Shown: in pieces, positions 12,754 to 31,550 of the stretch
Position numbering within the stretch: the first letter of the stretch is position 1
How the letters are laid out: each line of letters opens with the position of its first letter
UHGV virus genome: UHGV-1368307
Direction: 5' to 3' (one strand)
Source: a virus
Length of the DNA: 40,871 bases
Notes under the pieces: generated by a model
Database searches by the model: none
What the model was told of the DNA's origin: nothing
The model's input: the letters and a program-made list of their open reading frames with translations, nothing else
Program-made: the position numbers and the translations under genes

Positions 12754-12767
12754 CTTCACCTCGTTAC

Positions 12768-14265: not shown

Positions 14266-14287
14266 TGAAATCTCCAGACTACAGGTA

Positions 14288-14312
14288 ATAAAAAAGCCGC
14301 ACGATGGCGGCT
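14288..14312 (-). terminator. Rho-independent terminator closing the cargo cassette.
   Basis: agccgc-acgatg-gcggct hairpin followed on the minus strand by T8. Confidence 0.5.
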
Positions 14313-14442
14313 ACTGTCTAAATATCAGGGTGTTGCTTCGTTTTAACCCTGGTTAAGGTAAGCATTCAGCCCGTCAGTGGTTGGACACTGGCGCACTCTG
14401 TCGCGGGGGGATGGCTGATTACCTCCGAAAAGGAAAATACCC

Positions 14443-14989: not shown

Positions 14990-15000
14990 AAGACCTCCTG

Positions 15001-19782: not shown

Positions 19783-20268
19783 TTAACGACACATTTCAGC
19801 TTTAGCTTTCATGTAAGCCTCGTGAGCCAACTCCGCAGTTTGGAAACTACCGAGCTCTTTACGTTGCCCGTTGATGCGAATAGCGGAACGCCATACGCCG
19901 CGAGCTTTGCACCAGTTTGCTCCAATCAACTTGGACTTCGCCCCTTTTCGAACTTTGTGTCTGTTCTGTTGATTAACAAACTGGGTAACGATACGTAAGT
20001 TGTCCCATCGGTTATCTTTGGGATTGCCATTGATATGATCGACACACTTATCAGCCGGCGGCAGCGCACCGTCCATATACAAAAAAGCCAACCGATGAGC
20101 GAAAATTAATTTCTTATCGATCATTATCTGGATATAGCCGTACGTATCTGCGTTCCCGGCTATTTTGCCAGGCGTAGACCGTGAGTTTGTTCGCTTGATC
20201 CAAACAAATAAACCAGTCAAAGGGTCGTACTTCAGAACCTCTTTCAGCCTTTCTTGCGTGATGCTCAT
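19783..20268 (-). CDS. HNH_3 homing-type endonuclease with an AP2 domain, inserted between Q and the late promoter region.
   Basis: CVDHINGNPKDNRWDNLRIVTQFVNQQN HNH_3 core. GVWRSAIRINGQRKELGSFQTAELAHEAY AP2 domain. Confidence 0.75.
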   Translation of the reverse strand: MSITQERLKEVLKYDPLTGLFVWIKRTNSRSTPGKIAGNADTYGYIQIMIDKKLIFAHRLAFLYMDGALPPADKCVDHINGNPKDNRWDNLRIVTQFVNQQNRHKVRKGAKSKLIGANWCKARGVWRSAIRINGQRKELGSFQTAELAHEAYMKAKAEMCR

Positions 20269-20563: not shown

Positions 20564-21346
20564 TTAATAAGTTGTTGCCTTCTCAAATTCTACTGCCGCG
20601 TGACGCTCCCACTGGCGCAGCGTGTCCACCAGCATTTCATAAAAGGGTTTCCAGTTGCGTGACCATGAGGACTGATGGAGGTCCGGGAGACGCTTCAGAA
20701 TGGCACGGTGTACCGTCGCCGAGGAGATAGCAGAGAAGCCATTACCAGAGCAACGTTCACACGTTTTGAAAACCGGTGCGCCACGTTCTTTGGTCGCTTT
20801 GCGATCCAGCACTTCACCTTTACCGCCGCATCTGCACCGCGCAAGGATTACCTTTTTCCCTCCGCAGGTTTCGCAAACCCTTTTCACCAGCTCATTTTTA
20901 ATCTTCGGGGCCACCACTTCGGCACCGTCATCGTCGAAGATACCAGGATGTTTAACCACATCCTCATTCCCGGAGATAAAACCGGTACCGCTGCAACTGT
21001 GACATGTCACGCTGGTAGCCGCCGAACGGGAGTAATCAGCAAAGGCAAACTGCGCCAGCGTCAACATGCATGCTCCGAGCTTGTCGCCAGCGGCTTTGCG
21101 GACATTTTTAGGAGCGTTTTTGATAGCAACCTGCGCCAGCGCCTGAACTGCGAGCTGTTCATCTGTTTTGCTGATGCCGGACTTGCCGAAGAAAGCAGCC
21201 AGGCCGAAGCGTGCACGGCTGCTGGTGGTACCAATCGCCGCCATTACATCTGTTCCTGTAAGGCGGTCCGGAGAAGTTCCCTTCACGTCATCGCTGATAT
21301 GCATTCCCTGAGGACTAAAATGTTTGAGCGATGCTTCCAGTTTCAT
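20564..21346 (-). CDS. Q: Late antiterminator Q (phage 82/21-type, zinc-binding).
   Basis: 260 aa with CETCGGKK...CRCGGKG...CERCSGNG Cys clusters. Lies between the replication genes and the late region. GAGGGAAA RBS. Confidence 0.65.
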   Translation of the reverse strand: MKLEASLKHFSPQGMHISDDVKGTSPDRLTGTDVMAAIGTTSSRARFGLAAFFGKSGISKTDEQLAVQALAQVAIKNAPKNVRKAAGDKLGACMLTLAQFAFADYSRSAATSVTCHSCSGTGFISGNEDVVKHPGIFDDDGAEVVAPKIKNELVKRVCETCGGKKVILARCRCGGKGEVLDRKATKERGAPVFKTCERCSGNGFSAISSATVHRAILKRLPDLHQSSWSRNWKPFYEMLVDTLRQWERHAAVEFEKATTY

Positions 21347-21373
21347 AAGGTTTCCCTCGTTGCTTTGATGTTT

Positions 21374-22753
21374 TTAATAGTCTGCATTGCTGGAATGCCT
21401 TTCTTTTGAGTAACGTCTGGTCTGAGCTTTCTGCTGTGGCGCCGAACGCTGCTTTGCTAACTCCTGGTCAATTGGCAGGAAGTGCCCGTTATAGAATCGA
21501 CGGTAGATCGTACCCAATTCACCGTTGCGCTGTTTGGTCACGTTAATTTCCGCGATCCCCTTCGCTGGCGACTCAGGGTTATAAACTTCATCTCGGTATA
21601 GCATCATGATCAGATCAGCATCAGCCTCAATCTCACCAGAGTTTTTGAGGTCTGAGTTCATCGGTCGTTTGTTGGGTCTCGACTCAACGCCACGAGAAAG
21701 CTGGCTCAGGGCAAGGACCGGAGTTTTATTGGATTTAGCCAGACGCTTGAGTCCTTTTGACACCTCACCGACGGCAAGGTCATATCGTGCAGTGCTTTCA
21801 ATTTTGATGAGTGCCAGGTAATCCACGACCACCAGCGCTATTTCCGGATGCGCCAGCTGTAGGCGGGTAGCTATCTGTTGAATCTGATCTACTGTCAGAT
21901 CGGTGGAATCAACCATCCAGATGCTACGACCAGTCAGGCGCTCTACACCGTTTGTAAGTCTGGCCCAGTCCTCATCTTCAAAATCAGCAGCCTTTTTCAG
22001 GCGCGAAACTGACATGCCGCCGGCAGCAGATACCATTCGCTCTCCGATCTGGATATTTGGCATTTCCATGCTGAAGAACAGCACACCACGGCCCTGCTCA
22101 GAAACTTTGTCGATGATATCCAGCGCCAATTCAGTTTTACCCATCGACGGCCGCGCAGCGATAAACACCAAGTCTGTTGGTTCAATGCCGCCAGTCTTTG
22201 CGTCCAGCTCTTCGATACCTGTCATGAGGCTTCTGGCTTCTTCAAGCCCACGGTTGCGCGCATCTACCCGATCCACCACAGCAGGAAGAATGTCGTCGAT
22301 ATGAACTGGCTGAACGGTCTTTTCTTCGAGAGTAATTGCTGCAATGCTGTTCTGTGCGGCCCTGAATGCCGATAAAGCCGCATCACTATTGTGAGCATTC
22401 CGGAGATCGACCAGCGCCCTTTCAATGACAGCTTCGGCATCGCGAACAGCTGCATTACGCTCCAGCGTGGCAACGTAGGACACAAGCGCCGACTTGGCCC
22501 ATGCGATACGGCTCGAGTCCATAATGATTGCGCTGTGCTTTGGCATGTTTTCGCAGAGCAGTACAGGGTCAATAACGCCAGCTCCACGCGCCTGACGGCA
22601 GATCCCAGTATATATTTCCCGATACTGCGGTACCGAGAAAGCTGTGGCTGGCACCCTGGAAAGAATATCCAGTACCTCAGGGTCGGCTCCACGCAGAAAA
22701 ATTGCGCCGATCACCGCACCTTCCAGATCTTCATTTTTCCAGACAGGAGTCAT
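21374..22753 (-). CDS. Replicative DNA helicase, DnaB family.
   Basis: 459 aa. Walker A ARPSMGKT, Walker B VVVDYLAL, DnaB-like N-terminal domain. Confidence 0.9.
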   Translation of the reverse strand: MTPVWKNEDLEGAVIGAIFLRGADPEVLDILSRVPATAFSVPQYREIYTGICRQARGAGVIDPVLLCENMPKHSAIIMDSSRIAWAKSALVSYVATLERNAAVRDAEAVIERALVDLRNAHNSDAALSAFRAAQNSIAAITLEEKTVQPVHIDDILPAVVDRVDARNRGLEEARSLMTGIEELDAKTGGIEPTDLVFIAARPSMGKTELALDIIDKVSEQGRGVLFFSMEMPNIQIGERMVSAAGGMSVSRLKKAADFEDEDWARLTNGVERLTGRSIWMVDSTDLTVDQIQQIATRLQLAHPEIALVVVDYLALIKIESTARYDLAVGEVSKGLKRLAKSNKTPVLALSQLSRGVESRPNKRPMNSDLKNSGEIEADADLIMMLYRDEVYNPESPAKGIAEINVTKQRNGELGTIYRRFYNGHFLPIDQELAKQRSAPQQKAQTRRYSKERHSSNADY

Positions 22754-23631
22754 GCTACAACTCCTGACGCGATGGCACGGAAACTTCCCCAGCCAAATGC
22801 CAGACGGTTGCGGCCACCATCGGTAACCCGATCCACAATTCTCTCGCCAATCGTTTCTTTCAACTGGTCGAATGTAAGATTGCTGATCAGGATTGTTGGC
22901 AAAATGCTTTCGTACCTGGCATTGATAATTTCCTGAAGGATGGTCATTTCAGTCGGACTGCCGAACTGAACGCCCACCTCGTCGATAATTAGCAGATCCA
23001 ATGAAGCGAAACGTTCAATTACATCTTCCTCGGTCATTTCAGCATTGTGGCGCCACGTGCTTTTCACTGCTCGGGTGAGGCGCATAACGTCGGTGATTTC
23101 CACTTTAGCGAGATGTCCACGGATGATGCTTTTCGCCATAGACACTGCCAGGTGGTTTTTGCCGGTTCCACAATTTCCTGTCATAACGAGCCCAGTTCCA
23201 GCTTTAAGGCGTTCAGGCCAGCTGGTGGCATAACGCTGACAAGCCGCGAGATTTTTGGCGGCATCCGGGTTGACAGCCTGGTAGTTATCGAATTCACATG
23301 CTTCGAATCGTCTTGCGATCCCGGCATTGTCCATCAGGTCGACTACTCGTAATGCACGCAGACTGGATTCAATGTCAGCAAGTTCCGCTTTCACACACTC
23401 CGGGCACTGGGAGTATTTAACGTTTTCAACTCCACGATATGCTTTTCCAGTGAGGGAAATGCGCTGATAGTTGCCATGTTTTTCACAGTCGGCGGCGTGG
23501 ACGTCGCCTGACTCCCAGCTCCCCCACTGCCACGGTTTTTTATGTTCAACAGCAAACGCCAGTTCTTCACGAAGCCCTTCGCGCTTTGCCACCAGAGCTT
23601 CCCTTTCTTCGCGTTGTTTAATACTCAGCAT
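22750..23631 (-). CDS. DnaC/IstB-like helicase loader ATPase with an N-terminal Cys/His zinc-ribbon-like extension.
   Basis: GNCGTGKNHLAVSMA Walker A (N replaces the usual T/S). LLIIDEVG Walker B. ATGA overlap with the DnaB gene. Confidence 0.7.
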   Translation of the reverse strand: MLSIKQREEREALVAKREGLREELAFAVEHKKPWQWGSWESGDVHAADCEKHGNYQRISLTGKAYRGVENVKYSQCPECVKAELADIESSLRALRVVDLMDNAGIARRFEACEFDNYQAVNPDAAKNLAACQRYATSWPERLKAGTGLVMTGNCGTGKNHLAVSMAKSIIRGHLAKVEITDVMRLTRAVKSTWRHNAEMTEEDVIERFASLDLLIIDEVGVQFGSPTEMTILQEIINARYESILPTILISNLTFDQLKETIGERIVDRVTDGGRNRLAFGWGSFRAIASGVVA

Positions 23632-23646
23632 TGTGATTTCTCCTGC

Positions 23647-24558
23647 TTACCAGTTGCAGTCTGATTGGCCATAGTCTTGTTCACTAAACCCCGAAACCGG
23701 CAGCCCACCAGGTCTACCGCTTACCGCACCAGATGGCGCCTGCCATGGCTCTTCGAAATGCCGATCGGGTCCAAAGAACGTCGCCGCCTGTTTCACGTAC
23801 TGCGTTCCGGCGCTACCTGTAGCACGGACATAACCTGCATAACGGTTTACACCAGCCAGCATTGCCTCAGTGTTAACACCGTCTTTGATTCGAGCTTTCC
23901 AGGCTTTCCAGGCGGCAGCTTTAGAATTACCGCCAGCACGTTTAGGGTATGCCTGCCATGCCTTCTCGAACTCGTTGGAATAGTTCTCTTTGGAAGAGCG
24001 ATTTTCAGAATGGACTTTCCCACATGCGCCAATATCTTGTGATTCTTGTTTTGAATTTACTTGTGGATCATGTTTTGAATTTACTTGTGGATCTGGGGTC
24101 AGATTCTGACGGGTGAAAACGCCATTTTTGTCAGAATCTGACGGGTGAAAACCGTTTGAACATCCAGAATCTGACGGTTCATATTTTGAAGGGTCAGAAT
24201 CTGACGGGTGAAAACTGTTAGCCCTGCGTTGCTGTTTCAGCGCAGCTACCTTGTCCTTCTCAATGCGTGCCAAAGCCTCCAGGCGATCAGCATTCAAATG
24301 ATAAAGATTGGACGTGTTGCGATTACCTTTACGGCGTGATTCACGACGCAGCCAACCGGCAGACTCGAGTTCAGCAATGGCGGTCCTGACCGTGCTTTCC
24401 CCGAGCCCCAGCTGGCGGCAAATAGTTTCAACACTCGGATAGCAGACACCATCATCATTCGAGTAGTCAGCCAGACGAGCCATAATCACCAGCTTTGCAC
24501 CCTTAATGTCATGCGCGGCGCACGCGTCCCAGACGTTACCGAGAATTTTGCTACTCAT
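23647..24558 (-). CDS. Replication initiator (lambda O-like): N-terminal winged-helix domain, repeat-containing linker and a C-terminal domain.
   Basis: The N-terminus carries ESTVRTAIAELESAGWL. The linker encodes SFHPSDSD / EPSDSG / FHPSDSD repeats from DNA iterons inside the gene. AGGAG RBS. Confidence 0.7.
   Translation of the reverse strand: MSSKILGNVWDACAAHDIKGAKLVIMARLADYSNDDGVCYPSVETICRQLGLGESTVRTAIAELESAGWLRRESRRKGNRNTSNLYHLNADRLEALARIEKDKVAALKQQRRANSFHPSDSDPSKYEPSDSGCSNGFHPSDSDKNGVFTRQNLTPDPQVNSKHDPQVNSKQESQDIGACGKVHSENRSSKENYSNEFEKAWQAYPKRAGGNSKAAAWKAWKARIKDGVNTEAMLAGVNRYAGYVRATGSAGTQYVKQAATFFGPDRHFEEPWQAPSGAVSGRPGGLPVSGFSEQDYGQSDCNW
24047..24215. repeat. Origin iterons inside the O-like gene. 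Two tandem 23-bp repeats tgttttgaatttacttgtggatc, plus four about 22-bp repeats (g/t)cagaatctgacgggtgaaaac at a spacing of about 30 bp.
   Basis: Direct repeats read from the sequence: A1 24047..24069, A2 24071..24093, B1 24099..24120, B2 24131..24152, B3 degenerate 24166..24178, B4 24194..24215. The B core cagaatctg is itself near-palindromic. Confidence 0.7.
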
Positions 24559-24851
24559 ACAAACTCCTGAACTGGCGTGATTGTGTAGCCGCGAGCTGGC
24601 TCAAGACGAACTGCAAGCCCGGTATCGAGAGCACCAATTTTTCTCACTTTCAGGAAACCTGCTCGTTCAAGGGCCTTGATCTCCTTAAACATTGCCTGCT
24701 TTGAGCAGCAACAGAATTCGTACAGTACCTGATGATCGATTACTCGCTCCCCTTCTCCATCCATAGATCCGCCCATCAAAATGCGAAGCATGACCAACCG
24801 CTGAAGTGGGTTATCGAATGAATATTTACGTACGAAGTCAGAGTGATTCAT
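24555..24851 (-). CDS. Hypothetical 98-aa protein with a winged-helix-like C-terminus (CII position). Real start ATG at 24851.
   Basis: AGGAGG RBS. Sits between the cro-like gene and the O-like gene. Confidence 0.5.
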   Translation of the reverse strand: MNHSDFVRKYSFDNPLQRLVMLRILMGGSMDGEGERVIDHQVLYEFCCCSKQAMFKEIKALERAGFLKVRKIGALDTGLAVRLEPARGYTITPVQEFV

Positions 24852-24876
24852 GATTCCTCCTGCATGCCGTGACATG

Positions 24877-25104
24877 TCACACCTCAGAACCGCTCTTGAA
24901 AACCAACTGTTCTTTTGTAATAACTGGCTTATTCACGAATGACTTTGATGCGCTCTCGATCGCCAATGCCAGTCTGGGGGAAGCATTGCGATGACCATAA
25001 GCAATGAGATTCAGGTATCCCGGAGATGTGCCTGATTTTTTAGCAAGATCTGCCCACTGCTCTTTTGTTGAGCAGTTACGCCAAGCAAGTAATTGGTTGT
25101 TCAT
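24877..25104 (-). CDS. cro: Cro-like HTH regulator of 76 aa. Real start ATG at 25104.
   Basis: HTH segment STKEQWADLAKKSGTSPGYLNLIAYG. AGGAGA RBS. Divergent from cI across the operator region. Confidence 0.6.
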   Translation of the reverse strand: MNNQLLAWRNCSTKEQWADLAKKSGTSPGYLNLIAYGHRNASPRLALAIESASKSFVNKPVITKEQLVFKSGSEV

Positions 25105-25215
25105 TACGGTCTCCTGTTGCAATGAATCAACTTTAGCTTTTTGCTAAATTAAATGCAATAATCATTTAGCAGTTTGTGTATTTACCACATTGCTAAATAA
25201 TGAGATTATTTTGAC
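25105..25215. promoter_or_regulatory. Immunity operator/promoter region. OR palindrome TTTAGC-N5-GCTAAA at 25132..25148 and TTTAGCA/TGCTAAA half-sites at 25165..25171 and 25191..25197. pR on the minus strand (-35 TTGCAT 25158..25153, 17-bp spacer, -10 TAAAGT 25135..25130). Candidate pRM just upstream of the cI ATG.
   Basis: Palindromes and -35/-10 hexamers read from the sequence. The pR -10 overlaps an operator half-site. Confidence 0.6.
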
Positions 25216-25905
25216 ATGGACATAAAAAGCATACGCAAATCAAACCTTGAGCAGCTCATTGTTGAGTTCCTGAAGCGCGACAGACATACGACAAAAGCAG
25301 CTTTCGCAGAATTGTGCGGGATAAGCCCTGCCCAGTTGAGCCAGTTGCTTGGGGGCAATAGCCATCGAAACATAGGCGACAAAATGGCCAGAAAGATTGA
25401 ACAGGCCTTGGATCGTCCGTTTGGGTGGCTGGATAGTCCACACAATGCTCCTGACAGTATTAAAAGCGAGTTGGAGTATGTCGGATCAGTCCGTCCGGGA
25501 GCTGTACCAGTTGTAGGGGAAGCGATTCTTGGGATTGACGGAATGATCGATATGCTAGAGATCCACGCTGGATGGCTACAAATATACAGCGCGGATAGGG
25601 ATGCCTATGGGCTGAAAGTGAAGGGAGACAGCATGTGGCCACGCATACAGTCTGGAGAATATGTCGTCATAGAGCCAAACACCCAAGTTCATACAGGTGA
25701 TGAGGTTTTTGTGCGAACAAAAGATGGGCATAACATGATAAAAATCATGAGTAAAACTCGCGATGGCGATTATCAATTCTCAAGTGTAAACAGTGATCAC
25801 AGGCCCATCACCTTAAGTCCTGATAGCATCGAGAAAATGCATTTTGTTTCAGCTATTGTTAAGCATACGCGTTATGTTGACAATGATGAAATGCCCGCCC
25901 TGTAA
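25216..25905 (+). CDS. cI: CI-type repressor: N-terminal HTH and a C-terminal LexA-like S24 autopeptidase domain.
   Basis: Nonspecific-binding HTH (AELCGISPAQLSQLL). C-terminal GDSMWPRIQSGEYVVIEP and a downstream Lys (Ser-Lys dyad). Confidence 0.9.
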   Translation: MDIKSIRKSNLEQLIVEFLKRDRHTTKAAFAELCGISPAQLSQLLGGNSHRNIGDKMARKIEQALDRPFGWLDSPHNAPDSIKSELEYVGSVRPGAVPVVGEAILGIDGMIDMLEIHAGWLQIYSADRDAYGLKVKGDSMWPRIQSGEYVVIEPNTQVHTGDEVFVRTKDGHNMIKIMSKTRDGDYQFSSVNSDHRPITLSPDSIEKMHFVSAIVKHTRYVDNDEMPAL

Positions 25906-25926: not shown

Positions 25927-25952
25927 AACCGACCTGATGGTCGGTTTTTTTA
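25927..25952 (+). terminator. Rho-independent terminator after cI.
   Basis: aaccgacc-tgat-ggtcggtt hairpin followed by T7. Confidence 0.65.
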
Positions 25953-26010
25953 TGCCCACCGAAGAATAATATTAAAATAATTATATTATTTATCAAATAC
26001 ATAAAAGAAA

Positions 26011-26054
26011 AAGTAAATAATTTAGCATTTATCATTTGCATGGCTTTTACCATT
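26011..26054 (+). promoter_or_regulatory. OL/pL. -35 TTGCAT 26026..26031, 17-bp spacer, -10 TAAATT 26049..26054, flanked by TTTAGCA (26011..26017) and TGCTAAA (26046..26052) operator half-sites.
   Basis: Same hexamers and half-sites as pR/OR. Lies upstream of the plus-strand early-left genes. Confidence 0.55.
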
Positions 26055-26095
26055 TTGCTAAATTCACTTCATCAGCAGACAACGGAGCCTATGAA

Positions 26096-26308
26096 ATGAA
26101 TGTAGAGCAAATGCTTTCCGAGAACGGAACTGTCCACAAAATTGCGATGGATATTGATCGTGTAATCAATGCGCTTGAGTACGCAGAATCAGATCCAGAT
26201 GTTGCATATAAACCAGCGGCACTCATTAAAATTTGTATCAATCAGTTAAGGGATAATCTTTCTGTTCTAAACCATGAACTTGGTTATGATTGGCCGGAGA
26301 ATAAATAA
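26096..26308 (+). CDS. Hypothetical 70-aa acidic protein, first early-left gene. Real start ATG at 26096.
   Basis: GGAG RBS. Not Arg-rich, so not N-like. Confidence 0.5.
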   Translation: MNVEQMLSENGTVHKIAMDIDRVINALEYAESDPDVAYKPAALIKICINQLRDNLSVLNHELGYDWPENK

Positions 26309-26728
26309 ATGAAAACTCCATTAGACATGCTTCATGATATCGTCGCTCAGATTCCCGAAGGCAATACTCTTCTGGAAATGATTTATAAAAACACCGAAGA
26401 AATGAACGAGGAAACTGATTGCGGCTTAGCCTGCCTCATTCGCTCTTTCGATAAAACCCGTGAAACAGCTTACGCATACATCGAAGAGTTAGCAAATAAT
26501 GCAAAGACAGTTACCCCCCCCATCGGGAATAGAGATGATATTGCCGATGATATTTTTTATGCCACAGTCAGCGCTGCAAAACTCAGGGAACTGGCTCACG
26601 TATATAACGAATCATATTTTTCAGGAAAAGACAGTGATGACGCTGATTGCCTAATGGCATCACTTATTTTCGATAATATCATTAAGGTACATGAATTACT
26701 GAAAAGCATCGAAATAAAATTAAATTAA
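26309..26728 (+). CDS. Hypothetical 139-aa acidic protein.
   Basis: TAAATG start/stop overlap with the upstream gene. AT-rich. Confidence 0.5.
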   Translation: MKTPLDMLHDIVAQIPEGNTLLEMIYKNTEEMNEETDCGLACLIRSFDKTRETAYAYIEELANNAKTVTPPIGNRDDIADDIFYATVSAAKLRELAHVYNESYFSGKDSDDADCLMASLIFDNIIKVHELLKSIEIKLN

Positions 26729-26797
26729 TTAATAGGTAGTTTAAATCACACCATCCCTGGTGGGGATACGTGCAACCAAATTTCAGAGGAGATTGAA

Positions 26798-27457
26798 ATG
26801 AACCAATCTGAAATAGATAGTCTTCTTGAATCAAAAGTTTCGCGGCGTAGGCATTTAAAAAGCCTGGAGTATGGTGTTGGTCATTATGACGTAGAATTCC
26901 CCAGCACTATTATCATCGACGGAATAATGTGCCACCACAGCGCTCACCGTCGTTGGAGCGGCATGTTATCTCGCTGCTACAAACCGCACACAGAACAGTT
27001 AGAGCACAGTTACGCCGGATGTACTGTTGCCGAAGAGTGGCTGCGATTCTCAAACTTTCTGGCGTTCTGGAAAGAAAATTATCGCGATGGATATGTGCTA
27101 GATAAGGACCTGCTACACCCTGGTAACAAGATATATGGTCCTGAATACTGCGTATTTGTTCCCCCAGCACTTAACTTATTTACAGGTGATCGCGCCCGTT
27201 TACGAGGGAAATACCCACAGGGTGTTATCTGGCATAAACAGTCCGGTAAGTTTCGGGCACGAATCAACGTAAACGGAAAGATTTCACACCTTGGGCTTTT
27301 CAACACCACACAGGAAGCCCACTTAGCCTGGCACACAGCCAAGATGCAACAGGCTAAGGACTGGAAGCCCACATGTGATGAGATTCACCCACTACTACAT
27401 GCAGGCCTGATGAAAAAAATAGCGGGAATGCAACAGCGATTTACTCAACCACGTTAA
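26798..27457 (+). CDS. AP2-domain protein, a putative homing-endonuclease-like DNA-binding protein with no clear HNH core.
   Basis: VIWHKQSGKFRARINVNGKISHLGLFNTTQEAHLAW AP2 domain, similar to the AP2 domains of the two HNH_3 proteins. GAGGAG RBS. Confidence 0.55.
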   Translation: MNQSEIDSLLESKVSRRRHLKSLEYGVGHYDVEFPSTIIIDGIMCHHSAHRRWSGMLSRCYKPHTEQLEHSYAGCTVAEEWLRFSNFLAFWKENYRDGYVLDKDLLHPGNKIYGPEYCVFVPPALNLFTGDRARLRGKYPQGVIWHKQSGKFRARINVNGKISHLGLFNTTQEAHLAWHTAKMQQAKDWKPTCDEIHPLLHAGLMKKIAGMQQRFTQPR

Positions 27458-27593
27458 CCAACTTTTAAATGGGTAAGTAAATGTTAATCGATAAAGCGGC
27501 ATACAAAACAGCATGTCTTTTCTTTATGGTCTATGGCGACGAGTACCGCCATATATCTGACCTTTTCATGCGTAAAGCTTACGGAGTCTGAAT

Positions 27594-27797
27594 ATGCTCA
27601 GTAGAGACAGTTCTCTAGAAACCGCAAAAAATACAGCAGATAACCTTTATCAATTAATGGAGTTAATCAACTCCAATATTATTGATATGGATATCGAGCA
27701 AATAATTTCCCTGTCTGGCCTCTGCCTTGATTTATCGGCTCAGGTTTCAATGTGGATGGATTCGGAGTTTGAACGCCGTGAAAAACAACGTAATTGA
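27594..27797 (+). CDS. Hypothetical 67-aa protein.
   Basis: GGAG RBS. Confidence 0.45.
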   Translation: MLSRDSSLETAKNTADNLYQLMELINSNIIDMDIEQIISLSGLCLDLSAQVSMWMDSEFERREKQRN

Positions 27798-28188
27798 AAC
27801 TTACCGACGCCGAATTTTAAAGGCAGCGTTATTACGCCACCAGCGTAAAACGGGTACTAACTGCCTTGTTATTAAGCTCAATAAAGGCGGTATTAACACG
27901 GTCGAGTTAACAGAGATTCTTCTCGATGGATTATTACGAAAATTCGAAAGGCTCGCGATCAGTGAGTACGGGAATGTCGAAGGCGTAAAAGCTATCAAAG
28001 GAATTTACAGCAGCGCTGTTGATGTTAATGGCAGCGGTGAATTCCTCACAGATAGCGGAAAGGAATTAATAGACGAGCTCATTTCTGAGCTGGTTGAGTT
28101 CGTCAGAAAACAAAAAGTAGAGGCTCCGAAAACGGAGGGTCATGAAATGGGGGGATCTGATGGCACTGACAGCGATACGAATTCCTGA
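27781..28188 (+). CDS. Hypothetical 135-aa protein with an acidic Gly/Asp-rich C-terminus. Probable GTG start at 27781 overlapping the upstream stop.
   Basis: The track ORF begins at 27727. GGAG lies 10 nt before the GTG. Confidence 0.45.
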   Translation, partial: KNNVIETYRRRILKAALLRHQRKTGTNCLVIKLNKGGINTVELTEILLDGLLRKFERLAISEYGNVEGVKAIKGIYSSAVDVNGSGEFLTDSGKELIDELISELVEFVRKQKVEAPKTEGHEMGGSDGTDSDTNS

Positions 28189-28381
28189 GTGGGTTCACCT
28201 CAAAGCAGCACACGTTTTAAGCCAGTTCAGAGCAAGGCGCATTCACCCCTGCCGAATGCACGGCTCCGGGAATTTGAGCCTCAAAGTTAACCATCGCTGG
28301 CGGCTACTCTCCCGCGATGGCGGCAAGAACTGGGAAGTAATGAGTCACGAACGATACAGCAAAGTTAAGGACCGGAAATGA
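28142..28381 (+). CDS. Hypothetical basic 79-aa protein overlapping the upstream gene by 47 nt.
   Basis: GGAGGG lies 3 nt upstream of the ATG. Its C-terminal NHRWRLLSRDGGKNWEVMSHERY loosely recalls a RelE/ParE-fold C-terminus. Confidence 0.4.
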   Translation: MKWGDLMALTAIRIPEWVHLKAAHVLSQFRARRIHPCRMHGSGNLSLKVNHRWRLLSRDGGKNWEVMSHERYSKVKDRK

Positions 28382-28791
28382 AAGATAAACGCACCGTAAG
28401 CATGATTGACCTGGCATTACAGAAACACGATACGCCAGTTGGCCCACTGTTCGTAGCAGTACGTCACGGTCGTATCAAAAAATGCTTCACGCGAGATACG
28501 GCGATCCGCTATCTGGCTTTCTTCATGACCACCGAGGCTTTTGAGCGTTCAGGTTTTCCGCAGCATCACCCGCGAGTGCGTATTGATCGCGATGATATGG
28601 AGGTATGGCGAGACGGGGAAACAAAGGCTGAGTATCTGGCCGCCCACCAGCGTTGTGTTCGCCGTCTGCGTCGTATCCTGGCGCGCAAGCGAGAAATGGA
28701 AAAATGGTGTGAAAAATGGGGCGCGATGCACGAGCGTTACGTCAAAGAAGTAGATGCATTGCAAGCCATCAAACCAGAAGGAGTGCATTAA
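28378..28791 (+). CDS. Hypothetical 137-aa protein.
   Basis: ATGA overlap upstream and TAATG overlap downstream. Confidence 0.5.
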   Translation: MKDKRTVSMIDLALQKHDTPVGPLFVAVRHGRIKKCFTRDTAIRYLAFFMTTEAFERSGFPQHHPRVRIDRDDMEVWRDGETKAEYLAAHQRCVRRLRRILARKREMEKWCEKWGAMHERYVKEVDALQAIKPEGVH

Positions 28792-29369
28792 TGGTTGATT
28801 CAAGCTTTACCCCAGAGCCTACATCATCCGGCATCCGTTTTGGTAACCGAGTTATTGGTTATTCAGTTGCGGTTCGCCAGCTCGACAACGGTAATTATGA
28901 CAAACGAATTCCGGATGGACTTGAACTGTTGGCTTGCATTATGGAAGGGATTGAAAGCGGCTGGTTTAACCCGGGCATCGAGAAAGAAATCATTCTTTGG
29001 CGCTGGATGCTGGTTGCCGTCTTTATTACGGAAGAGCAGGAAAAGAACGGGACCAGTGAGGTGGCCAACGATTCAGGAGGTTTCGACAAAGCAGTTATCT
29101 ACTCCGGCCAGCACGGTTCAATCAGTATTTATCCTGCGCCAGAGCGATTCGCACTTGCTAATCATGTGGAAGGTATTGCCATTGAGAAATACGGCCAGGA
29201 GCTTGGTCAGCAGATGGCTCTGCGCATGTACAAGGGCATGTTAGCGGAAGACGAAGTGCAGGGGCTTCAGCTGTCACAATTTGGCCGGGAGGGTTTTAAT
29301 TTGCTGCACGACAGTTTCATCGAACAGATTCAGAAAGAAGGCATGCCTGACATGCCAGTTATGCACTGA
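28791..29369 (+). CDS. Hypothetical 192-aa protein. Real start ATG at 28791.
   Basis: AAGGAG RBS. Confidence 0.5.
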   Translation: MVDSSFTPEPTSSGIRFGNRVIGYSVAVRQLDNGNYDKRIPDGLELLACIMEGIESGWFNPGIEKEIILWRWMLVAVFITEEQEKNGTSEVANDSGGFDKAVIYSGQHGSISIYPAPERFALANHVEGIAIEKYGQELGQQMALRMYKGMLAEDEVQGLQLSQFGREGFNLLHDSFIEQIQKEGMPDMPVMH

Positions 29370-29376: not shown

Positions 29377-29613
29377 ATGAGCGACGTTGTTCTTCTGGTA
29401 CCGAATGACTGGGTTAGCGAAAAGGTTCTGATTGCGGTTACCGGGCTCAAGCCCGGAACCATCCTCCGGGCTAGAAAAGAATGCTGGCTGGTTGGGCGGG
29501 AATATGTGCATGTTTCACCTGACGGAAATCCGAAACCTTCCAGCGAGTGCATGTATAACCGTAAAGCGGTCGATGCGTGGGTGGCCTCAATGAAAAACAA
29601 ACAGCCTGGGTGA
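29377..29613 (+). CDS. xis: Excisionase-like small DNA-binding protein.
   Basis: 78 aa, immediately upstream of int. GAGGTG RBS. Confidence 0.55.
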   Translation: MSDVVLLVPNDWVSEKVLIAVTGLKPGTILRARKECWLVGREYVHVSPDGNPKPSSECMYNRKAVDAWVASMKNKQPG

Positions 29614-29668
29614 TCTGAGGCCATGAAAAAGGTAATCTCATATCGCTCTTGGGCGTCTGGAGGAATCA

Positions 29669-30982
29669 ATGGATAAAGTTATATATCCAACAGGCGTCGA
29701 AAACCACGGTGGCACATTGCGCATCTGGTTTAATTTCAAAGGTAAGCGTGTCAGGGAGAGCCTCGGTGTCCCTGACACCGCTAAGAACAGGAAGATCGCC
29801 GGGGAACTGCGGACATCGGTATGCTTTGCCATCAGAACAGGCACATTTGAGTACGCGGCACAGTTTCCGGACTCCCCTAACCTCAAGACTTTTGGGGTGG
29901 GTAAGAAAGAAATTACAGTGTCAGAGCTTGCCGAAAAGTGGCTGGATCTGAAGAGAATGGAAATCTGCGCGAACGCACTCAACCGTTATGAGTCAGTCGC
30001 AAGGAATATGGTGCCAAGGATCGGGGGTAATCGGCTGGTGTCGTCGGTGACTAAAGAGGAATTACTGTATATCAGGAAAGATTTACTGACCCGTCACCAG
30101 ATGCCAATGAAGGGGAAGGTACCGGCAAAGGGACGAAGTGTTGTCACCGTAAATTATTACATGACAACGATTGCCGGAATGTTTCAGTTTGCCGCAGATC
30201 ACGGTTACTTAGAGGCGAACCCATTCGACGGGATCAAGCCTCTTAAAAAAGCCAGGGCAGAGCCAGATCCGCTAACTCGTGACGAATTTATTCGCCTGAT
30301 TGATGCATGCCGGCATCAGCAGACGAAAAACCTGTGGTCACTTGCAGTATACACAGGGGTGCGTCATGGGGAGCTGACCTCCCTGGCCTGGGAGGATATC
30401 GATCTTGAAGCTGGAACAATAACAATCAGGCGTAATTATACAAAACTGGGTGAATTCACTCTACCGAAAACTGAGGCCAGTACCAACAGAGTGATACACC
30501 TCATTCAGCCTGCGATCAGCGTCCTGAGGAATCAGGCGGAAATGACCAGGCTTGGAAAAAAGCATCAGATCGATGTTCAGCTGCGCGAATATGGCAGAAC
30601 TGAGAGCCACGAGTGTACATTTGTTTTCAACCCTCAACTGGTCAGAAAATGTCAGCAGGTGGGGATCATCTACAAAGTCGACTCGATAGGTGATTTATGG
30701 GACGCAGCGATGAAGCGAGCAGGGATAAGGCACAGGAAAGCATATCAGTCGCGTCACACGTATGCGTGCTGGTCACTGTCAGCTGGCGCTAACCCCAGCT
30801 TCATTGCCAGTCAGATGGGCCATGCGAGCGCCCAGATGGTCTTCAACGTATACGGTGCGTGGATGGCAGACAGCAGTAGTGAGCAGATCGCAATGCTGAA
30901 TCAGAGGCTCGCGGATTTTGCCCCACAGATGCCCCAAAGCATACATAGCAGCGCCAGAGCATTATTGAAATCAGTAAGTTAG
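29669..30982 (+). CDS. int: Tyrosine integrase, lambda Int family, with an N-terminal arm-binding domain.
   Basis: MDKVIYPTGVENHGGTLRIWFNFKGKRVRESLG arm-binding domain. Catalytic RHTYACW and C-terminal Tyr region. GGAGG RBS. Confidence 0.9.
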   Translation: MDKVIYPTGVENHGGTLRIWFNFKGKRVRESLGVPDTAKNRKIAGELRTSVCFAIRTGTFEYAAQFPDSPNLKTFGVGKKEITVSELAEKWLDLKRMEICANALNRYESVARNMVPRIGGNRLVSSVTKEELLYIRKDLLTRHQMPMKGKVPAKGRSVVTVNYYMTTIAGMFQFAADHGYLEANPFDGIKPLKKARAEPDPLTRDEFIRLIDACRHQQTKNLWSLAVYTGVRHGELTSLAWEDIDLEAGTITIRRNYTKLGEFTLPKTEASTNRVIHLIQPAISVLRNQAEMTRLGKKHQIDVQLREYGRTESHECTFVFNPQLVRKCQQVGIIYKVDSIGDLWDAAMKRAGIRHRKAYQSRHTYACWSLSAGANPSFIASQMGHASAQMVFNVYGAWMADSSSEQIAMLNQRLADFAPQMPQSIHSSARALLKSVS

Positions 30983-31205
30983 TTAATAACGCCCGACATG
31001 TTAACTGCGTGACGCGGCAATTTTAAAAATCACTAAAGAACGCCCAAGAGCATGTGTATTCTTTATGATTATCAATGACATAAAATTAACTTCATATGAA
31101 AATCACCAAAGTTCATATGAGTAAAAATGTCCCACTCATGCCCCAAACCGTCTCAAAAACAATTTTTTTGCCCCATCCATGCCCCATAGCTCTCTTCTGA
31201 AATGC
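30983..31205. other. Candidate attP region.
   Basis: AT-rich non-coding DNA directly after int. Repeats ttcatatga (31091 and 31111) and catgcccca (31137 and 31169) look like arm-type/IHF-type sites. The core cannot be defined without the host sequence. Confidence 0.35.
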
Positions 31206-31219
31206 TATATACCTAACCG

Positions 31220-31248
31220 TTGACACTGTACAAATAACCAGTATAAAT
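31220..31248 (+). promoter_or_regulatory. Sigma-70 promoter (TTGACA-17-TATAAA) with an embedded LexA box CTGTACAAATAACCAG at 31226..31241.
   Basis: Hexamers with a 17-bp spacer. The CTGT-N8-CCAG box lies between -35 and -10 and is nearly identical to the SOS box I recall for chromosomal dinI. Confidence 0.6.
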
Positions 31249-31283
31249 TCTCTTTAAAAATACAGTCGTTTCCGGAGGTCTTT

Positions 31284-31550
31284 ATGTTCGTTGAGCTGGT
31301 CTATGACAAGCGTAATGTTGATGGTTTGGTTGGCGCCAGAGAAATCATCCTGGCTGAACTGACGAAGCGGGTACACCAGATTTTCCCTGATGCCGAAGTG
31401 AAGGTGAAGCCGATGCAGGCAAACGGCTTAAATAGCGATGCCAGCAAAAGCGATCGCGAAAAGCTCAACCGCATGCTGGAGGAAATGTTTGAAGAGTCCG
31501 ATATGTGGTTGGTCTCAGAGTTCCCGACCGTTCGCCAGGTTGGCCTTTAA
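31284..31550 (+). CDS. dinI: DinI-family SOS-inducible protein (moron).
   Basis: 88 aa. IFPDAEVKVK...EESDMWLVSE matches the DinI pattern (FPD...W.VSE). GGAGG RBS. Has its own promoter and terminator. Confidence 0.7.
   Translation: MFVELVYDKRNVDGLVGAREIILAELTKRVHQIFPDAEVKVKPMQANGLNSDASKSDREKLNRMLEEMFEESDMWLVSEFPTVRQVGL

What the first reader, a model, noticed from the sequence alone, without database searches (positions are those of the whole stretch)
26096..29369. Early-left accessory block of eight unknown genes replaces N/recombination functions; includes small acidic proteins and an overlapped basic 79-aa ORF
Downstream of pL, where lambdoid phages carry N, kil, gam, bet/exo or erf, this phage has only unannotatable genes. 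Two acidic proteins (70 and 139 aa) are tightly coupled. An AP2-domain endonuclease-like gene follows, then a 67-aa protein and a 135-aa protein with an acidic Gly/Asp tail. Overlapping it by 47 nt is a basic 79-aa protein whose C-terminus (NHRWRLLSRDGGKNWEVMSHERY) loosely resembles a RelE/ParE-type fold. A 137-aa and a 192-aa protein, linked by start/stop overlaps, complete the block. The first half is markedly AT-rich relative to the rest of the genome. Early expression, small acidic proteins and an apparent toxin-like ORF fit an anti-defence/defence hotspot, but none of this is established. No Arg-rich N-like protein is visible, so early antitermination may work differently or be absent.
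Basis: inference. Interest (0 to 1): 0.7.

Follow-up and report, generated by a model that had tools for sequence, protein, structure and literature searches.

The report
Phage early operon with ParE-like gene
This is the repressor-controlled early-left operon of a lambda-like enterobacterial phage. It is a patchwork of conserved genes of unknown function, including a real RelE/ParE-fold "toxin-like" gene that always travels with one uncharacterised partner gene. It is interesting but not unique, because the same genes occur in hundreds of related prophages.

Summary
All eight ORFs exist as described. They form one plus-strand operon behind a CI-operator-controlled promoter (pL), after the cI terminator and before xis-int. 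No N, nut site, Kil, Gam or recombinase was detected anywhere in the genome, whereas the structural relative mEp235 carries these genes in the same slot.

Seven of the eight proteins belong to PHROG families, six of them of unknown function. The HNH/AP2 gene is one of five HNH-like genes in this genome.

The basic ORF is a true gene. It matches Pfam ParE_like (2.9e-20), has median dN/dS 0.09, and its AlphaFold model matches YafQ, YoeB and HigB best. Its likely start is 28160, giving 73 aa and a 29-nt overlap.

No canonical antitoxin is present. The upstream gene g5 has a fold with no PDB match. It accompanies the ParE-like gene in every enterobacterial prophage locus whose upstream flank was present, is swapped together with it as a unit, and is sometimes fused to it in frame.

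Best reading: a mosaic accessory operon whose core is a partner-controlled RelE-superfamily effector, made only after repressor loss. A defence or anti-defence role is not supported by any database hit. The genes are already catalogued and uncharacterised. Interest is moderate.

The parts
25132..25197 (.). OR region: two copies of the 17-bp operator TTTAGC-N5-GCTAAA (25132-25148 and 25181-25197) between cro (24877-25122, - strand) and cI
   Evidence: the only sites with at most 1 mismatch in the window, together with 26046
25216..25905 (+). cI-type repressor (HTH_3 + Peptidase_S24), 229 aa
   Evidence: Pfam S24 1.8e-17, HTH_3 3.4e-6
25927..25953 (+). Intrinsic terminator after cI (8-bp stem, loop, T-run)
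26037..26065 (+). Putative pL promoter TTGCAT-17-TAAATT, overlapped by the OL operator at 26046-26062
   Evidence: The promoter hexamers were read by eye; the consensus scan did not list this site
26096..26308 (+). g1: 70-aa acidic protein (pI 4.6, GC 0.39). No family hit; present in a minority of related loci
26309..26728 (+). g2: 139-aa acidic protein (pI 4.5), phrog_27579 (unknown function); zero-gap coupling to g1
26798..27457 (+). g3: 219-aa divergent HNH-like + AP2-like protein (free-standing homing-endonuclease type), flanked by 69- and 136-nt gaps and absent from some relatives that keep g2 and g4
   Evidence: phrog_953 2.7e-81; AP2 20.4 bits, below cut-off; WRI1 AP2, E 0.014; His107 aligns with the HNH His of two canonical HNH_3 genes of the window
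27594..27797 (+). g4: 67-aa acidic protein (pI 4.3), phrog_8959 (unknown function); overlaps g5 by 20 nt
27778..28188 (+). g5: 136-aa protein (GTG start), phrog_1737. The conserved core is about 121 aa: an Arg-rich N-terminal helix, a beta-hairpin and three helices. Residues 116-136 are a disordered tail. It is the constant upstream partner of the ParE-like gene in enterobacterial prophages
   Evidence: no PDB fold match
28149..28154 (+). G6 run at the g5/ParE-like junction, which also serves as the Shine-Dalgarno for the 28160 start. Relatives with G5 have an in-frame g5::ParE-like fusion. Relatives with G7 have a g5 stop that abuts the ATG
28160..28381 (+). g6: 73-aa basic RelE/ParE-superfamily protein (Pfam ParE_like PF24732, phrog_1525). 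An alternative upstream ATG at 28142 would give 79 aa
28378..28791 (+). g7: 137-aa basic protein (pI 9.8), phrog_1886 (unknown function). ATGA overlap with g6. Present in all 82 close loci but only about half of the divergent species loci
28791..29369 (+). g8: 192-aa acidic protein (pI 4.65), phrog_1515 (unknown function). Variable presence. A protein under the match in one E. coli genome, probably the g8 homologue, is named 'PH domain-containing protein' by PGAP
29377..30982 (+). Context: excisionase (DUF1233, 29377-29613) and tyrosine integrase (29669-30982), which close the operon

Best explanation
The region is the CI-repressed early-left (pL) operon of a lambdoid temperate siphovirus of Enterobacter/Citrobacter/Escherichia-type hosts. 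This phage has a short, N-independent early programme: cro, replication genes, then Q.

The operon is a mosaic of exchangeable accessory modules.
1. An AT-rich, recently acquired cassette, g1-g4. It holds three small acidic proteins of unknown function and a free-standing HNH/AP2 homing-endonuclease-type gene.
2. A widely conserved core next to xis-int: g5, the ParE-like gene g6, g7 and g8.

Within the core, g5 and the 73-aa RelE/ParE-fold protein form a two-gene unit. They are translationally coupled, inherited and recombined together, and occasionally fused into one polypeptide.

Inferred mechanism. Both proteins are made only when CI repression of pL is lifted, at infection or induction. 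The small basic RelE-fold protein acts on a host nucleic-acid-handling machine. The most likely action is ribosome-associated mRNA cleavage, as by YafQ, YoeB and HigB, using the family-invariant Arg48, His63 and Tyr66. This would slow or redirect host functions during early lytic development. g5 would bind and modulate or target it. In the lysogen, repression by CI replaces the need for a classical labile antitoxin.

Shown here: operon structure, operator sharing, family membership, fold, purifying selection, the g5 linkage and the fusions.

Inferred: toxicity, RNase activity, a physical g5-g6 interaction, and timing of expression.
For: Operon and regulation:
- There is a terminator after cI, and an OL operator identical in type to the two OR operators sits inside a sigma-70-like promoter.
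- Gene overlaps run from g4 to g8, and xis-int follow directly.

Phage type:
- Heads and tails resemble mEp235, HK446, Fraca and CharmingMan.
- A Q-like antiterminator, DnaB/DnaC-like proteins and a lysis cassette are present.

Mosaicism:
- 26 gene orders among 82 loci.
- g1-g4 have GC 0.38-0.47 against 0.51 for the genome.

ParE-like gene:
- Pfam PF24732, E 2.9e-20.
- AlphaFold model with pLDDT 87.7 and topology beta-alpha-beta-beta-beta-alpha.
- The best PDB matches are YafQ (probability 0.97), YoeB, GraT, RelK and HigB.
- Median dN/dS is 0.09 in frame, against 1.2-1.8 in the other two frames.
- A16, R48, H63 and Y66 are nearly invariant across 91 family representatives.

g5 linkage:
- g5 is upstream in 82 of 82 viral loci and in every divergent enterobacterial prophage locus whose upstream flank was present, at 36-96% identity. 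This includes the Rahnella locus, confirmed by hhalign at 94% probability.
- In E. coli MS 115-1, g1-g4 and g7 are 96-100% identical to the window, but g5 plus g6 drop together to 50-65% nucleotide identity. The pair was swapped as a unit.
- In-frame g5::ParE-like fusions occur with at least four different junctions: P0210 (14 members), P0215, P0216, and L003/L004.
- Other family members are fused to unrelated N-terminal domains.

A role outside lysogeny:
- Homologues occur in Sortsne-type phages with no annotated integrase, next to the lysis genes.
Against: - No experiment or solved structure exists for any member of this family.
- Foldseek E-values are weak (0.06-1, TM about 0.5). No sequence link to RelE, ParE, YoeB or HigB Pfam families was found.
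- The conserved Arg, His and Tyr could be binding residues rather than catalytic ones.
- The g5 model matches no antitoxin fold or any other known fold.
- An extra 70-89-aa gene lies between g5 and g6 in about two thirds of divergent loci, which is unusual for a coupled pair.
- Recombination junctions sometimes fall between g5 and g6. In L086, g5 is 72% identical while g6 is 99%.
- Some fusions could be homopolymer sequencing errors, because G5/G6/G7 variation is seen at the junction.
- Expression from pL only is inferred from sequence. An internal promoter cannot be excluded in this AT-rich DNA.
Confidence: 0.5

Rival explanations
1. g6 is a domesticated, non-toxic RelE/ParE-fold protein. It would serve as a small nucleic-acid-binding or regulatory accessory factor in the activation, excision or replication of mobile elements, working with whichever protein is encoded just upstream (g5, ParB-like, BisC-like).
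For: - The family is small: 111 representatives among 1.84 billion proteins.
- In all contexts examined here it lies on mobile elements, and it always sits directly after, and often overlaps, a larger upstream gene of varying type.
- That upstream gene is g5 in lambdoid prophages.
- It is a ParB-HTH protein in Serratia and Brenneria prophages and in phage OS31.
- It is a DUF2857 gene in SPI-7/ICEclc-type ICEs. DUF2857 is BisC, a subunit of the BisDC transfer-competence activator (PMC7423338).
- In many prophages g6 lies directly next to xis-int.
- No antitoxin-like neighbour was seen anywhere.
- Fusions to the upstream partner are tolerated.
Against: - Near-invariance of just Arg48, His63 and Tyr66 across a family with 12% mean column identity looks more like an active site than a scaffold.
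- The closest folds are all active toxins.
- No DNA-binding motif was recognised.
Confidence: 0.22
2. g5-g6 (or g6-g7) is a classical type II toxin-antitoxin module. It would be expressed in the lysogen and stabilise the prophage, or abort infection by other phages.
For: - The toxin-family assignment.
- The gene order of an upstream partner followed by a small basic toxin-like gene, with translational coupling.
- Co-inheritance of g5 with g6.
- Other annotators label homologues 'mRNA interferase', 'HigB-like' or 'putative toxin antitoxin system protein'.
Against: - The pair lies 2 kb inside an operon whose only recognisable promoter is covered by a CI operator, and no promoter enrichment was found.
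- g5 has no RHH, Phd, HTH or ParD-like fold.
- PADLOC and NCBIfam give no hit.
- g7 is missing in about half of the divergent loci.
- An unrelated gene is often inserted between g5 and g6.
- Homologues exist in the phage Sortsne, which has no annotated integrase.
Confidence: 0.13
3. g6 is a true ParE-type DNA gyrase poison, as its Pfam name suggests.
For: The Pfam and PGAP name 'ParE-like'. ParE and RelE share one fold, so the model cannot exclude this.
Against: - No bona fide gyrase-inhibiting ParE structure appears among the top 50 Foldseek hits. RNase-type members dominate.
- At 73 aa it has only one N-terminal helix. From general knowledge, ParE toxins usually have a two-helix hairpin and a C-terminal extension.
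- No match to Pfam ParE_toxin.
Confidence: 0.07
4. The small acidic proteins g1, g2, g4 and g8 are anti-defence factors, for example DNA mimics or inhibitors of restriction, and the block is chiefly a counter-defence island.
For: - They are early-expressed, small and acidic (pI 4.3-4.65).
- They lie in AT-rich, recently acquired DNA.
- The same slot holds Abc2 (anti-RecBCD) in mEp235 and a Lar restriction-alleviation domain protein in one relative.
Against: - None has any hit to a characterised family.
- No structure was predicted for them here.
- Acidity and small size are common among phage early proteins of many functions.
Confidence: 0.08

Closest known systems
RelE/ParE-superfamily type II toxins: YafQ (DinJ-YafQ), YoeB (YefM-YoeB), HigB, GraT, RelK
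   Same: They share the small basic alpha/beta fold (beta-alpha-beta-beta-beta) and are the best PDB matches of the g6 model. g6 has a conserved Arg on beta3 and His/Tyr at the end of the last strand. From general knowledge, this recalls the catalytic Arg65/His83/Tyr84 of YoeB. The gene is small and overlaps the 3' end of an upstream partner gene.
   Different: There is no detectable sequence similarity. g6 has only one N-terminal helix. The partner (g5) is about 121 aa, has an unmatched fold, and lacks a recognisable DNA-binding antitoxin domain. The pair has no promoter of its own and lies inside a CI-repressed operon. Toxicity is untested.
Pfam PF24732 ParE_like / PGAP 'ParE family toxin-like protein' / phrog_1525
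   Same: g6 is a clear member, at 72.5 bits against a cut-off of 24.4. Homologues at 97% identity are already annotated under this name in Enterobacter genomes.
   Different: Nothing differs; this is the family. No paper in the searched library mentions the accession, so the name is a structural label and not a tested function.
Lambda-type pL (early-left) operon with host-inhibiting and accessory genes (N, cIII, kil, gam, bet, exo, Ea genes), as in lambda, HK97 and mEp235
   Same: The position is the same: between cI and xis-int. The operon is transcribed away from the immunity region from an operator-controlled promoter, carries non-essential mosaic cargo, and ends in xis-int.
   Different: None of the canonical genes is present, and there are no N or nut sites. 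The cargo is a different set of families. The pR operon is short, without a nin region.
Free-standing HNH-AP2 homing endonucleases of phages (phrog_953/374/99)
   Same: g3 matches phrog_953 at 2.7e-81 and has an AP2-like C-terminal domain. It is flanked by intergenic gaps and is present or absent among relatives. His107 aligns with the HNH histidine of two canonical HNH_3+AP2 genes in the same genome.
   Different: It does not reach any Pfam HNH model, and AP2 is below the gathering score at 20.4 against 33.3. Nuclease activity and a homing site are untested.
Fused or three-component prophage toxin-antitoxin systems (CapRel-type fused TA; PaaR2-PaaA2-ParE2 of E. coli O157 prophages). This comparison is from general knowledge and was not tested here.
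   Same: A prophage-borne RelE/ParE-fold or toxin domain with its partner encoded upstream. Natural single-polypeptide versions exist.
   Different: No homology to these systems was found. There is no regulator gene, no defence phenotype is known, and the fusions here are rare variants (2 of 82 loci) rather than the normal state.

Membership tests
Pfam ParE_like (PF24732) | Score above the curated gathering threshold of the family HMM | tested here: met
   72.5 bits against 24.4, E 2.9e-20, covering 67 of 67 profile positions. All 91 representatives found with the window-family profile also match only this model.
RelE/ParE toxin superfamily (fold level) | Compact alpha/beta fold with a 3-4-stranded antiparallel sheet packed against N-terminal helix or helices | tested here: met
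   AlphaFold model, pLDDT 87.7, with beta2-5, alpha10-24, beta39-42, beta47-51, beta57-62 and alpha63-71. The top Foldseek PDB hits are YafQ, YoeB, GraT, RelK and HigB, with probability up to 0.97 but E only 0.06-1.
RelE-type mRNA interferases | Catalytic basic and aromatic residues (Arg/Lys, His, Tyr) lining the sheet and C-terminus; ribosome-dependent mRNA cleavage | tested here: inconclusive
   R48, H63 and Y66 are at least 90% conserved family-wide. No structural superposition onto a catalytic site could be made, and no activity data exist.
ParE gyrase poisons | Inhibition of DNA gyrase; two-helix N-terminal hairpin and C-terminal region required for toxicity | tested here: inconclusive
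   The model has a single N-terminal helix. There is no ParE_toxin Pfam match and no gyrase-type ParE among the top 50 structural hits. Activity cannot be tested with these tools.
Type II toxin-antitoxin module | Adjacent cognate antitoxin with a recognisable antitoxin or DNA-binding fold (RHH, Phd/YefM, HTH, ParD) | tested here: not met
Type II toxin-antitoxin module | Conserved two-gene unit across homologues | tested here: inconclusive
   g5 is always present in enterobacterial prophage loci and is swapped together with g6. However, another gene is often inserted between them, and distant homologues have unrelated upstream genes: ParB-like, DUF2857, and Sortsne gp06.
Type II toxin-antitoxin module | Own autoregulated promoter; expression in the carrier (lysogenic) state | tested here: not met
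   The only operator-bearing promoter is pL, 1.7 kb upstream of g5. Promoter-like sites in the region are not enriched (9 found against 11 expected), and none lies upstream of g5. This is sequence-level evidence only.
Type II toxin-antitoxin module | Toxicity of the toxin and neutralisation by the partner | not testable with these tools
   Requires expression experiments.
Lambda N-type antitermination | Small Arg-rich protein encoded first after pL, plus boxA/boxB nut sites downstream of pL and pR | tested here: not met
   There is no boxA (YGCTCTTWA) outside a capsid-region chance hit. No N-like ORF of at least 20 aa lies between pL and g3. Rfam gives no hits. g5 has an Arg-rich N-terminal helix, but it is a folded, near-neutral protein and the fifth gene of the operon.
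Lambdoid recombination and host-inhibition genes (Exo/Bet, Erf, RecT, Gam, Abc, Kil, cIII) | Match to the corresponding Pfam or PHROG families | tested here: not met
   No such hit was found for the eight proteins or for the early-right operon genes. The relative mEp235 has them in this slot.
HNH (His-Me finger) homing endonuclease with AP2 domain | HNH motif histidine and Asn/His residues; AP2 DNA-binding domain | tested here: inconclusive
   phrog_953 at 2.7e-81. His107 aligns with the catalytic-motif His of two Pfam-positive HNH_3 genes of the window. However, g3 has no Pfam HNH hit, and AP2 scores 20.4 bits against a cut-off of 33.3. A weak match to the plant WRI1 AP2 domain supports the AP2 assignment (E 0.014).
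Known anti-phage defence systems (PADLOC-DB 2.0) | Match to any component model | tested here: not met
   Zero hits at E up to 0.1 for all eight proteins.

The most novel reading that the evidence does not exclude
g5 plus the ParE_like protein define an uncharacterised two-component module, sometimes fused, of mobile elements (lambdoid prophages, non-integrating phages, ICEs). In it, a minimal RelE-fold nuclease is paired with lineage-specific partners of unknown fold. It would be deployed during element activation or lytic growth for host take-over or regulation, rather than as an addiction or abortive-infection toxin. The prophage repressor, not a labile antitoxin, would keep it silent.
Probability: 0.25. 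Interest if true: 0.6.

Novelty: new member of a known kind. Interest (0 to 1): 0.38.

Why it matters
If the reading is right, it gives a concrete and easily testable example of a RelE/ParE-fold protein used as an early lytic function controlled by the phage repressor, with a partner of a new fold. This bears on the open question of why toxin-like genes without antitoxins are so common on phages and ICEs.

It would also add a data point on lambdoid phages that run their early programme without N, nut sites or their own recombination genes.

As it stands, the genes are ordinary in distribution. They occur in more than 500 viral contigs and many enterobacterial genomes, and they are already catalogued, so this window is not special. 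The value lies in the family-level observations: the constant g5 partner, the unit swap, the natural fusions, and the invariant Arg/His/Tyr residues.

Tried and rejected
1. g5 as a cryptic N protein. Its N-terminus (TYRRRILKAALLRHQRK) is Arg-rich. I rejected this because there are no boxA/nut sites, it is not the first gene, and it is folded and near-neutral.
2. g7 as a downstream antitoxin in HigBA-like order. I rejected this because g7 is absent in about half of the divergent loci, where g6 is followed by g8 or xis.
3. g4 as a RelB/DinJ antitoxin. The NCBIfam hit has E 0.063 and 13.5 bits against a cut-off of 45.65, and g4 is present in few loci. I treat it as noise.
4. The acidic tail of g5 as a remnant of the 'middle' gene, or as a toxin-binding tail. 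The shared ending ...DSDTNS* is simply the other reading frame of the conserved g6 N-terminal codons. The tail is modelled as disordered, and it vanishes or becomes a fusion with one G more or less.
5. My first reading that g3 lacks the HNH histidine was wrong. Alignment with the window's two canonical HNH_3 genes places His107 at that position.
6. Sequence searches of g5, g6, g7, g8 and g3 against PDB gave nothing useful apart from a weak AP2 match for g3.
7. Rfam search of the whole window gave no hit.
8. PADLOC search of the eight proteins, and of 113 cargo clusters from the same slot in relatives, found no defence system, mostly HTH-type regulator models that are probably repressor cross-hits.
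9. Literature searches for the Pfam accession and for the closest named phages found nothing.

Full report
**The observation**

The window is a complete, circularly permuted genome of a lambdoid siphovirus, 40.9 kb long with GC 0.511. On the plus strand, the order is:
- a cI-type repressor (25216-25905; HTH_3 plus Peptidase_S24);
- an intrinsic terminator (25927-25946 plus a T-run);
- eight closely spaced ORFs from 26096 to 29369;
- an excisionase (DUF1233) and a tyrosine integrase.

The charge and composition statements are correct. g1, g2, g4 and g8 have pI 4.3-4.65, and the basic ORF has pI 11.2-11.5. GC is 0.38-0.39 for g1, g2 and g4, against 0.49-0.53 for g6-g8.

**The pL assignment**

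The claim that the block lies downstream of pL could be checked directly. A 17-bp palindrome, TTTAGC-N5-GCTAAA, occurs with at most one mismatch at only three places in the genome. Two are between cro and cI (25132 and 25181). One is at 26046. At two or fewer mismatches there are 7 hits against 1.8 expected, and no shuffle reached 7.

The third copy lies in the spacer and -10 region of a TTGCAT-17-TAAATT promoter, 30 nt before g1. I read the promoter hexamers by eye, and the consensus scan did not list this site. The block is therefore best read as a CI-repressed early-left operon.

**Corrections to the description**

*The basic ORF.* Nearly all homologues found are 72-73 aa and start MALTAIRIPEW. 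At the DNA level, this start (ATG or GTG) and a purine-rich Shine-Dalgarno 5-8 nt upstream are conserved across very different upstream sequences. The likely start is therefore 28160. That gives 73 aa and a 29-nt overlap with g5, not 47 nt.

*The '135-aa' gene.* It most likely starts at GTG 27778 (136 aa), 10 nt after a GGAG.

*The acidic Gly/Asp tail.* Residues 116-136 of g5 are modelled as disordered. The ending ...DSDTNS* is simply the alternative reading frame of the conserved N-terminal codons of g6. Unrelated upstream genes in other phages end the same way.

**What kind of phage this is, and what it lacks**

The structural genes are about 90% identical to mEp235, HK446, Fraca and CharmingMan.

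The early-right operon is short. It holds cro, a replication initiator, a DnaC-like loader, a DnaB-like helicase and a Q-like antiterminator, followed by the lysis genes. There is no nin region and no cII.

Pfam and PHROG searches found no N, Kil, cIII, Gam/Abc, Exo/Bet, Erf or RecT anywhere. No boxA lies near pL or pR, no small N-like ORF is present, and Rfam gives no hit.

mEp235 shares the head genes, yet it has N-like, Nun-like, cIII, Kil, Erf, SSB, Exo and Abc2 in exactly this slot. The lack of N fits a short operon that runs straight into Q.

**The eight proteins**

Seven of the eight belong to PHROG families at E-values of 1e-28 to 1e-88; six of these families have no known function, and g3 matches one annotated as HNH endonuclease. 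g1 has no family. NCBIfam and PADLOC give nothing.

g3 matches phrog_953, annotated 'HNH endonuclease', at 2.7e-81.
- Its C-terminal part is AP2-like. Pfam AP2 scores 20.4 bits, below the cut-off of 33.3. There is a weak match to the plant WRI1 AP2 domain.
- It has no Pfam HNH hit. When aligned with two canonical HNH_3+AP2 genes of the same genome, His107 falls on their motif histidine.
- It is flanked by the only sizeable intergenic gaps in the block. It is absent from some relatives that keep g2 and g4. This behaviour is typical of a free-standing homing-endonuclease gene.
- The genome carries five HNH-like genes in all.

**The ParE-like gene is real and belongs to a catalogued family**

- g6 matches Pfam PF24732 (ParE_like) at 72.5 bits against a cut-off of 24.4. 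PGAP already names 97%-identical Enterobacter proteins 'ParE family toxin-like protein'.
- Across 22 alleles, the median dN/dS is 0.09 in the g6 frame and 1.2-1.8 in the two other frames. This disposes of the 'untranslated ORF' refutation.
- The AlphaFold model (pLDDT 87.7) has the topology beta-alpha-beta-beta-beta-alpha. Its best PDB matches are all RelE/ParE-superfamily toxins: YafQ (probability 0.97), YoeB, an Agrobacterium YoeB/ParE, GraT, RelK and HigB. The E-values are weak (0.06-1) and TM is about 0.5. No gyrase-type ParE appears in the top 50.
- There is no sequence-level link to solved structures or to other toxin Pfam families.
- The family is small: 111 representatives at 50% identity among 1.84 billion proteins.
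- Across 91 representatives with 12% mean column identity, only Ala16, Arg48, His63 and Tyr66 stay nearly invariant. From general knowledge, an Arg on the sheet plus a His/Tyr pair at the C-terminal end of the last strand is the pattern of the RNase members such as YoeB and HigB, rather than of ParE gyrase poisons. This is a lead, not a test.

**Is it half of a toxin-antitoxin pair?**

No neighbour looks like an antitoxin.

*g7 (downstream, ATGA overlap).* It is present in all 82 closest viral loci, but only in about half of 30 divergent species loci. Where it is absent, g6 is followed directly by g8 or by xis.

*g5 (upstream).* It is the constant companion.
- It precedes g6 in 82 of 82 viral loci and in every divergent enterobacterial prophage locus whose upstream flank was present. 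Identity ranges from 36% to 96%, and this includes a Rahnella copy recognised only by profile comparison.
- In E. coli MS 115-1, the prophage has the same cI. Its g1-g4 and g7 are 96-100% identical to the window, but identity drops to 50-65% across g5 plus g6 together. The two genes were exchanged as one unit.
- In-frame g5::g6 fusion proteins exist with at least four different junctions: P0210 with 14 member sequences, P0215, P0216, and the isolate-genome loci L003 and L004.

*Counter-evidence.*
- A 70-89-aa gene of unknown function is inserted between g5 and g6 in about two thirds of divergent loci.
- Recombination junctions sometimes separate g5 from g6, as in L086.
- More distant family members have quite different upstream genes, each overlapped by the ParE_like ORF. 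These are a ParB-HTH protein in Serratia and Brenneria prophages and in phage OS31, a DUF2857 (BisC-type) gene in SPI-7/ICEclc-like ICEs, and an unrelated 120-125-aa protein in Sortsne/KMB41-type phages. In the last group the pair sits before the lysis cassette, and Sortsne has no annotated integrase.
- A few family members are fused to unrelated N-terminal domains.

**Most likely mechanism**

The facts to reconcile are as follows:
- a RelE-fold protein with active-site-like invariants;
- an obligate but non-antitoxin-like partner;
- a location inside a repressor-controlled operon;
- family members in a phage with no annotated integrase (Sortsne) and in ICEs.

I think the best reading is an early lytic or activation function. 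g5 and g6 would be made together when CI is inactivated or on infection. g6 would act on host translation or RNA, less likely on gyrase. g5 would bind and tune or target it. CI repression, not a labile antitoxin, would keep it off in the lysogen. Confidence in this mechanistic layer is modest.

The structural layer is well supported: a pL operon, mosaic modules, and g5-g6 as a unit.

The main rival is a non-toxic, domesticated RelE-fold accessory protein tied to mobile-element activation. Its association with ParB-like and BisC-like regulators and with xis-int suggests this. A classical addiction or abortive-infection TA system, and a true gyrase poison, are less likely for the reasons above.

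**The hotspot claim**

The slot is clearly a region of gene exchange. There are 26 gene orders among 82 near-identical-g6 loci. There are 113 distinct protein clusters in a roughly 6-kb neighbourhood across 112 loci.

Most clusters have no Pfam domain. Those that do are repressors, ORF6N/Bro-N antirepressor-like proteins, an SPFH protein, PrtN, a ClpX-type zinc finger and one Lar restriction-alleviation domain. PADLOC finds mostly HTH-type regulator models, probably repressor cross-hits.

So 'accessory-gene hotspot' is supported. 'Defence island' is not. 'Anti-defence' remains a reasonable but untested guess for the small acidic proteins.

**Novelty and score**

Every gene here already belongs to a catalogued family. 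The ParE-like gene is already named in RefSeq. The same module occurs in more than 500 IMG/VR contigs and in many Enterobacterales genomes. The window is therefore a new member of a known kind.

The family-level observations are new to me, and I found no paper on them in the searched library. They are the constant g5 partner of unmatched fold, the unit swap, the natural fusions, the homopolymer junction, and the Arg/His/Tyr invariants. They make the function cheaply testable. Interest is moderate, at 0.38.

Noticed in passing
window 28149-28154 (G6 run at the g5/g6 junction); loci L003, L004 (G5); L014, L028, L081 (G7): Among near-identical relatives the G-run is G6 in most loci. With G5, g5 and the ParE-like gene become one in-frame fusion. 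With G7, g5 stops at a TGA that abuts the ATG (TGATG). This could be real homopolymer slippage, like a contingency switch between three junction states, or it could be sequencing error.
   Followed up: partly
window 26798-27457, 19783-20268, 13699-14265, 12768-13139, 12103-12759: The 40.9-kb genome carries five HNH-endonuclease-like genes. Three have clear Pfam HNH or HNH_3 hits, one is borderline, and g3 is recognised by PHROG only. Two of them also have a weak AP2 hit (g3 and 19783-20268). This is an unusually high load of homing-endonuclease-type genes for a lambdoid phage.
   Followed up: partly
L115-L118 (Pectobacterium, Brenneria, Proteus, Providencia) around 4800-5180; L113, L114, L120 (Serratia, Brenneria, phage OS31): Distant ParE_like homologues (38-50% identity) sit immediately after a DUF2857 gene in SPI-7/ICEclc-type ICEs. 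DUF2857 is BisC, a subunit of the BisDC transfer-competence activator. Other homologues sit immediately after, and overlap, a ParB-HTH gene in Serratia-group prophages. This suggests a recurrent link between this small protein and ParB/BisC-type regulators of mobile-element activation.
   Followed up: partly
L001 (E. coli MS 115-1 chromosome, 1168252-1179113): The well-known CBASS model strain E. coli MS 115-1 carries a sister prophage. Its cI is 100% identical in protein, and its g1-g4 are 96-100% identical, but it has a different g5-ParE-like allele and a different integrase. It would be a convenient experimental host and lysogen for testing these genes.
   Followed up: partly
window 13124-13702 and 15001-16458 (- strand); GC dip to 0.44-0.45 at 13500-15000: Glucosyltransferase and glycosyltransferase genes (phrog_854, phrog_1579; 'moron' category) lie in a second low-GC island between the lysis and terminase regions, interleaved with an HNH gene. 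This is probably a serotype-conversion (O-antigen modification) cassette.
   Followed up: no
window 31284-31550 (+), next to the presumed attP region at about 31000-31250: A DinI-like RecA-filament-binding protein gene (phrog_189, 2.8e-21) sits just beyond the integrase. It has a strong promoter-like site upstream (TTGACA-18-TAAATT at 31220-31249). It may be expressed from the prophage and may modulate SOS induction.
   Followed up: no
window 24555-24875 (- strand) and the whole early-right operon, 20564-25122: There is no cII-like gene and no nin region. The 106-aa ORF after cro matches only the N-terminal part of a replication-initiator family (phrog_4617), and the operon runs cro, initiator, DnaC-like, DnaB-like, Q. 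How the lysis-lysogeny decision is made without cII and cIII is unclear.
   Followed up: no
Hits H2/H36/H53 (Aeromonas phage AsXd-1), H47 (Elizabethkingia phage EKP1), L111 (Chryseobacterium sp. 18061 assembly): Records labelled as phages or genomes of Aeromonas, Elizabethkingia and Chryseobacterium contain DNA or proteins 73-93% identical to this enterobacterial lambdoid phage. The host labels look doubtful. Possible causes are contaminating Enterobacteriaceae prophages or mixed cultures.
   Followed up: no
L002:4326-4595, L083:3817-4029, L084:3778-4032 (the 'middle' gene, absent from the window): About two thirds of divergent loci carry an extra 70-89-aa gene between g5 and the ParE-like gene. 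It comes in two types about 40% identical to each other and has no Pfam hit. Its 3' end overlaps the ParE-like start by 29 nt. Its role, and why the window lacks it, are unknown.
   Followed up: partly
window 26309-26728 (g2): The N-terminal 64 residues of g2 match a separate 63-aa PHROG family (phrog_6882, 2.2e-21). In several relatives g2 hits appear as two adjacent pieces, so g2 may be a fusion of two small proteins that are separate genes elsewhere.
   Followed up: no
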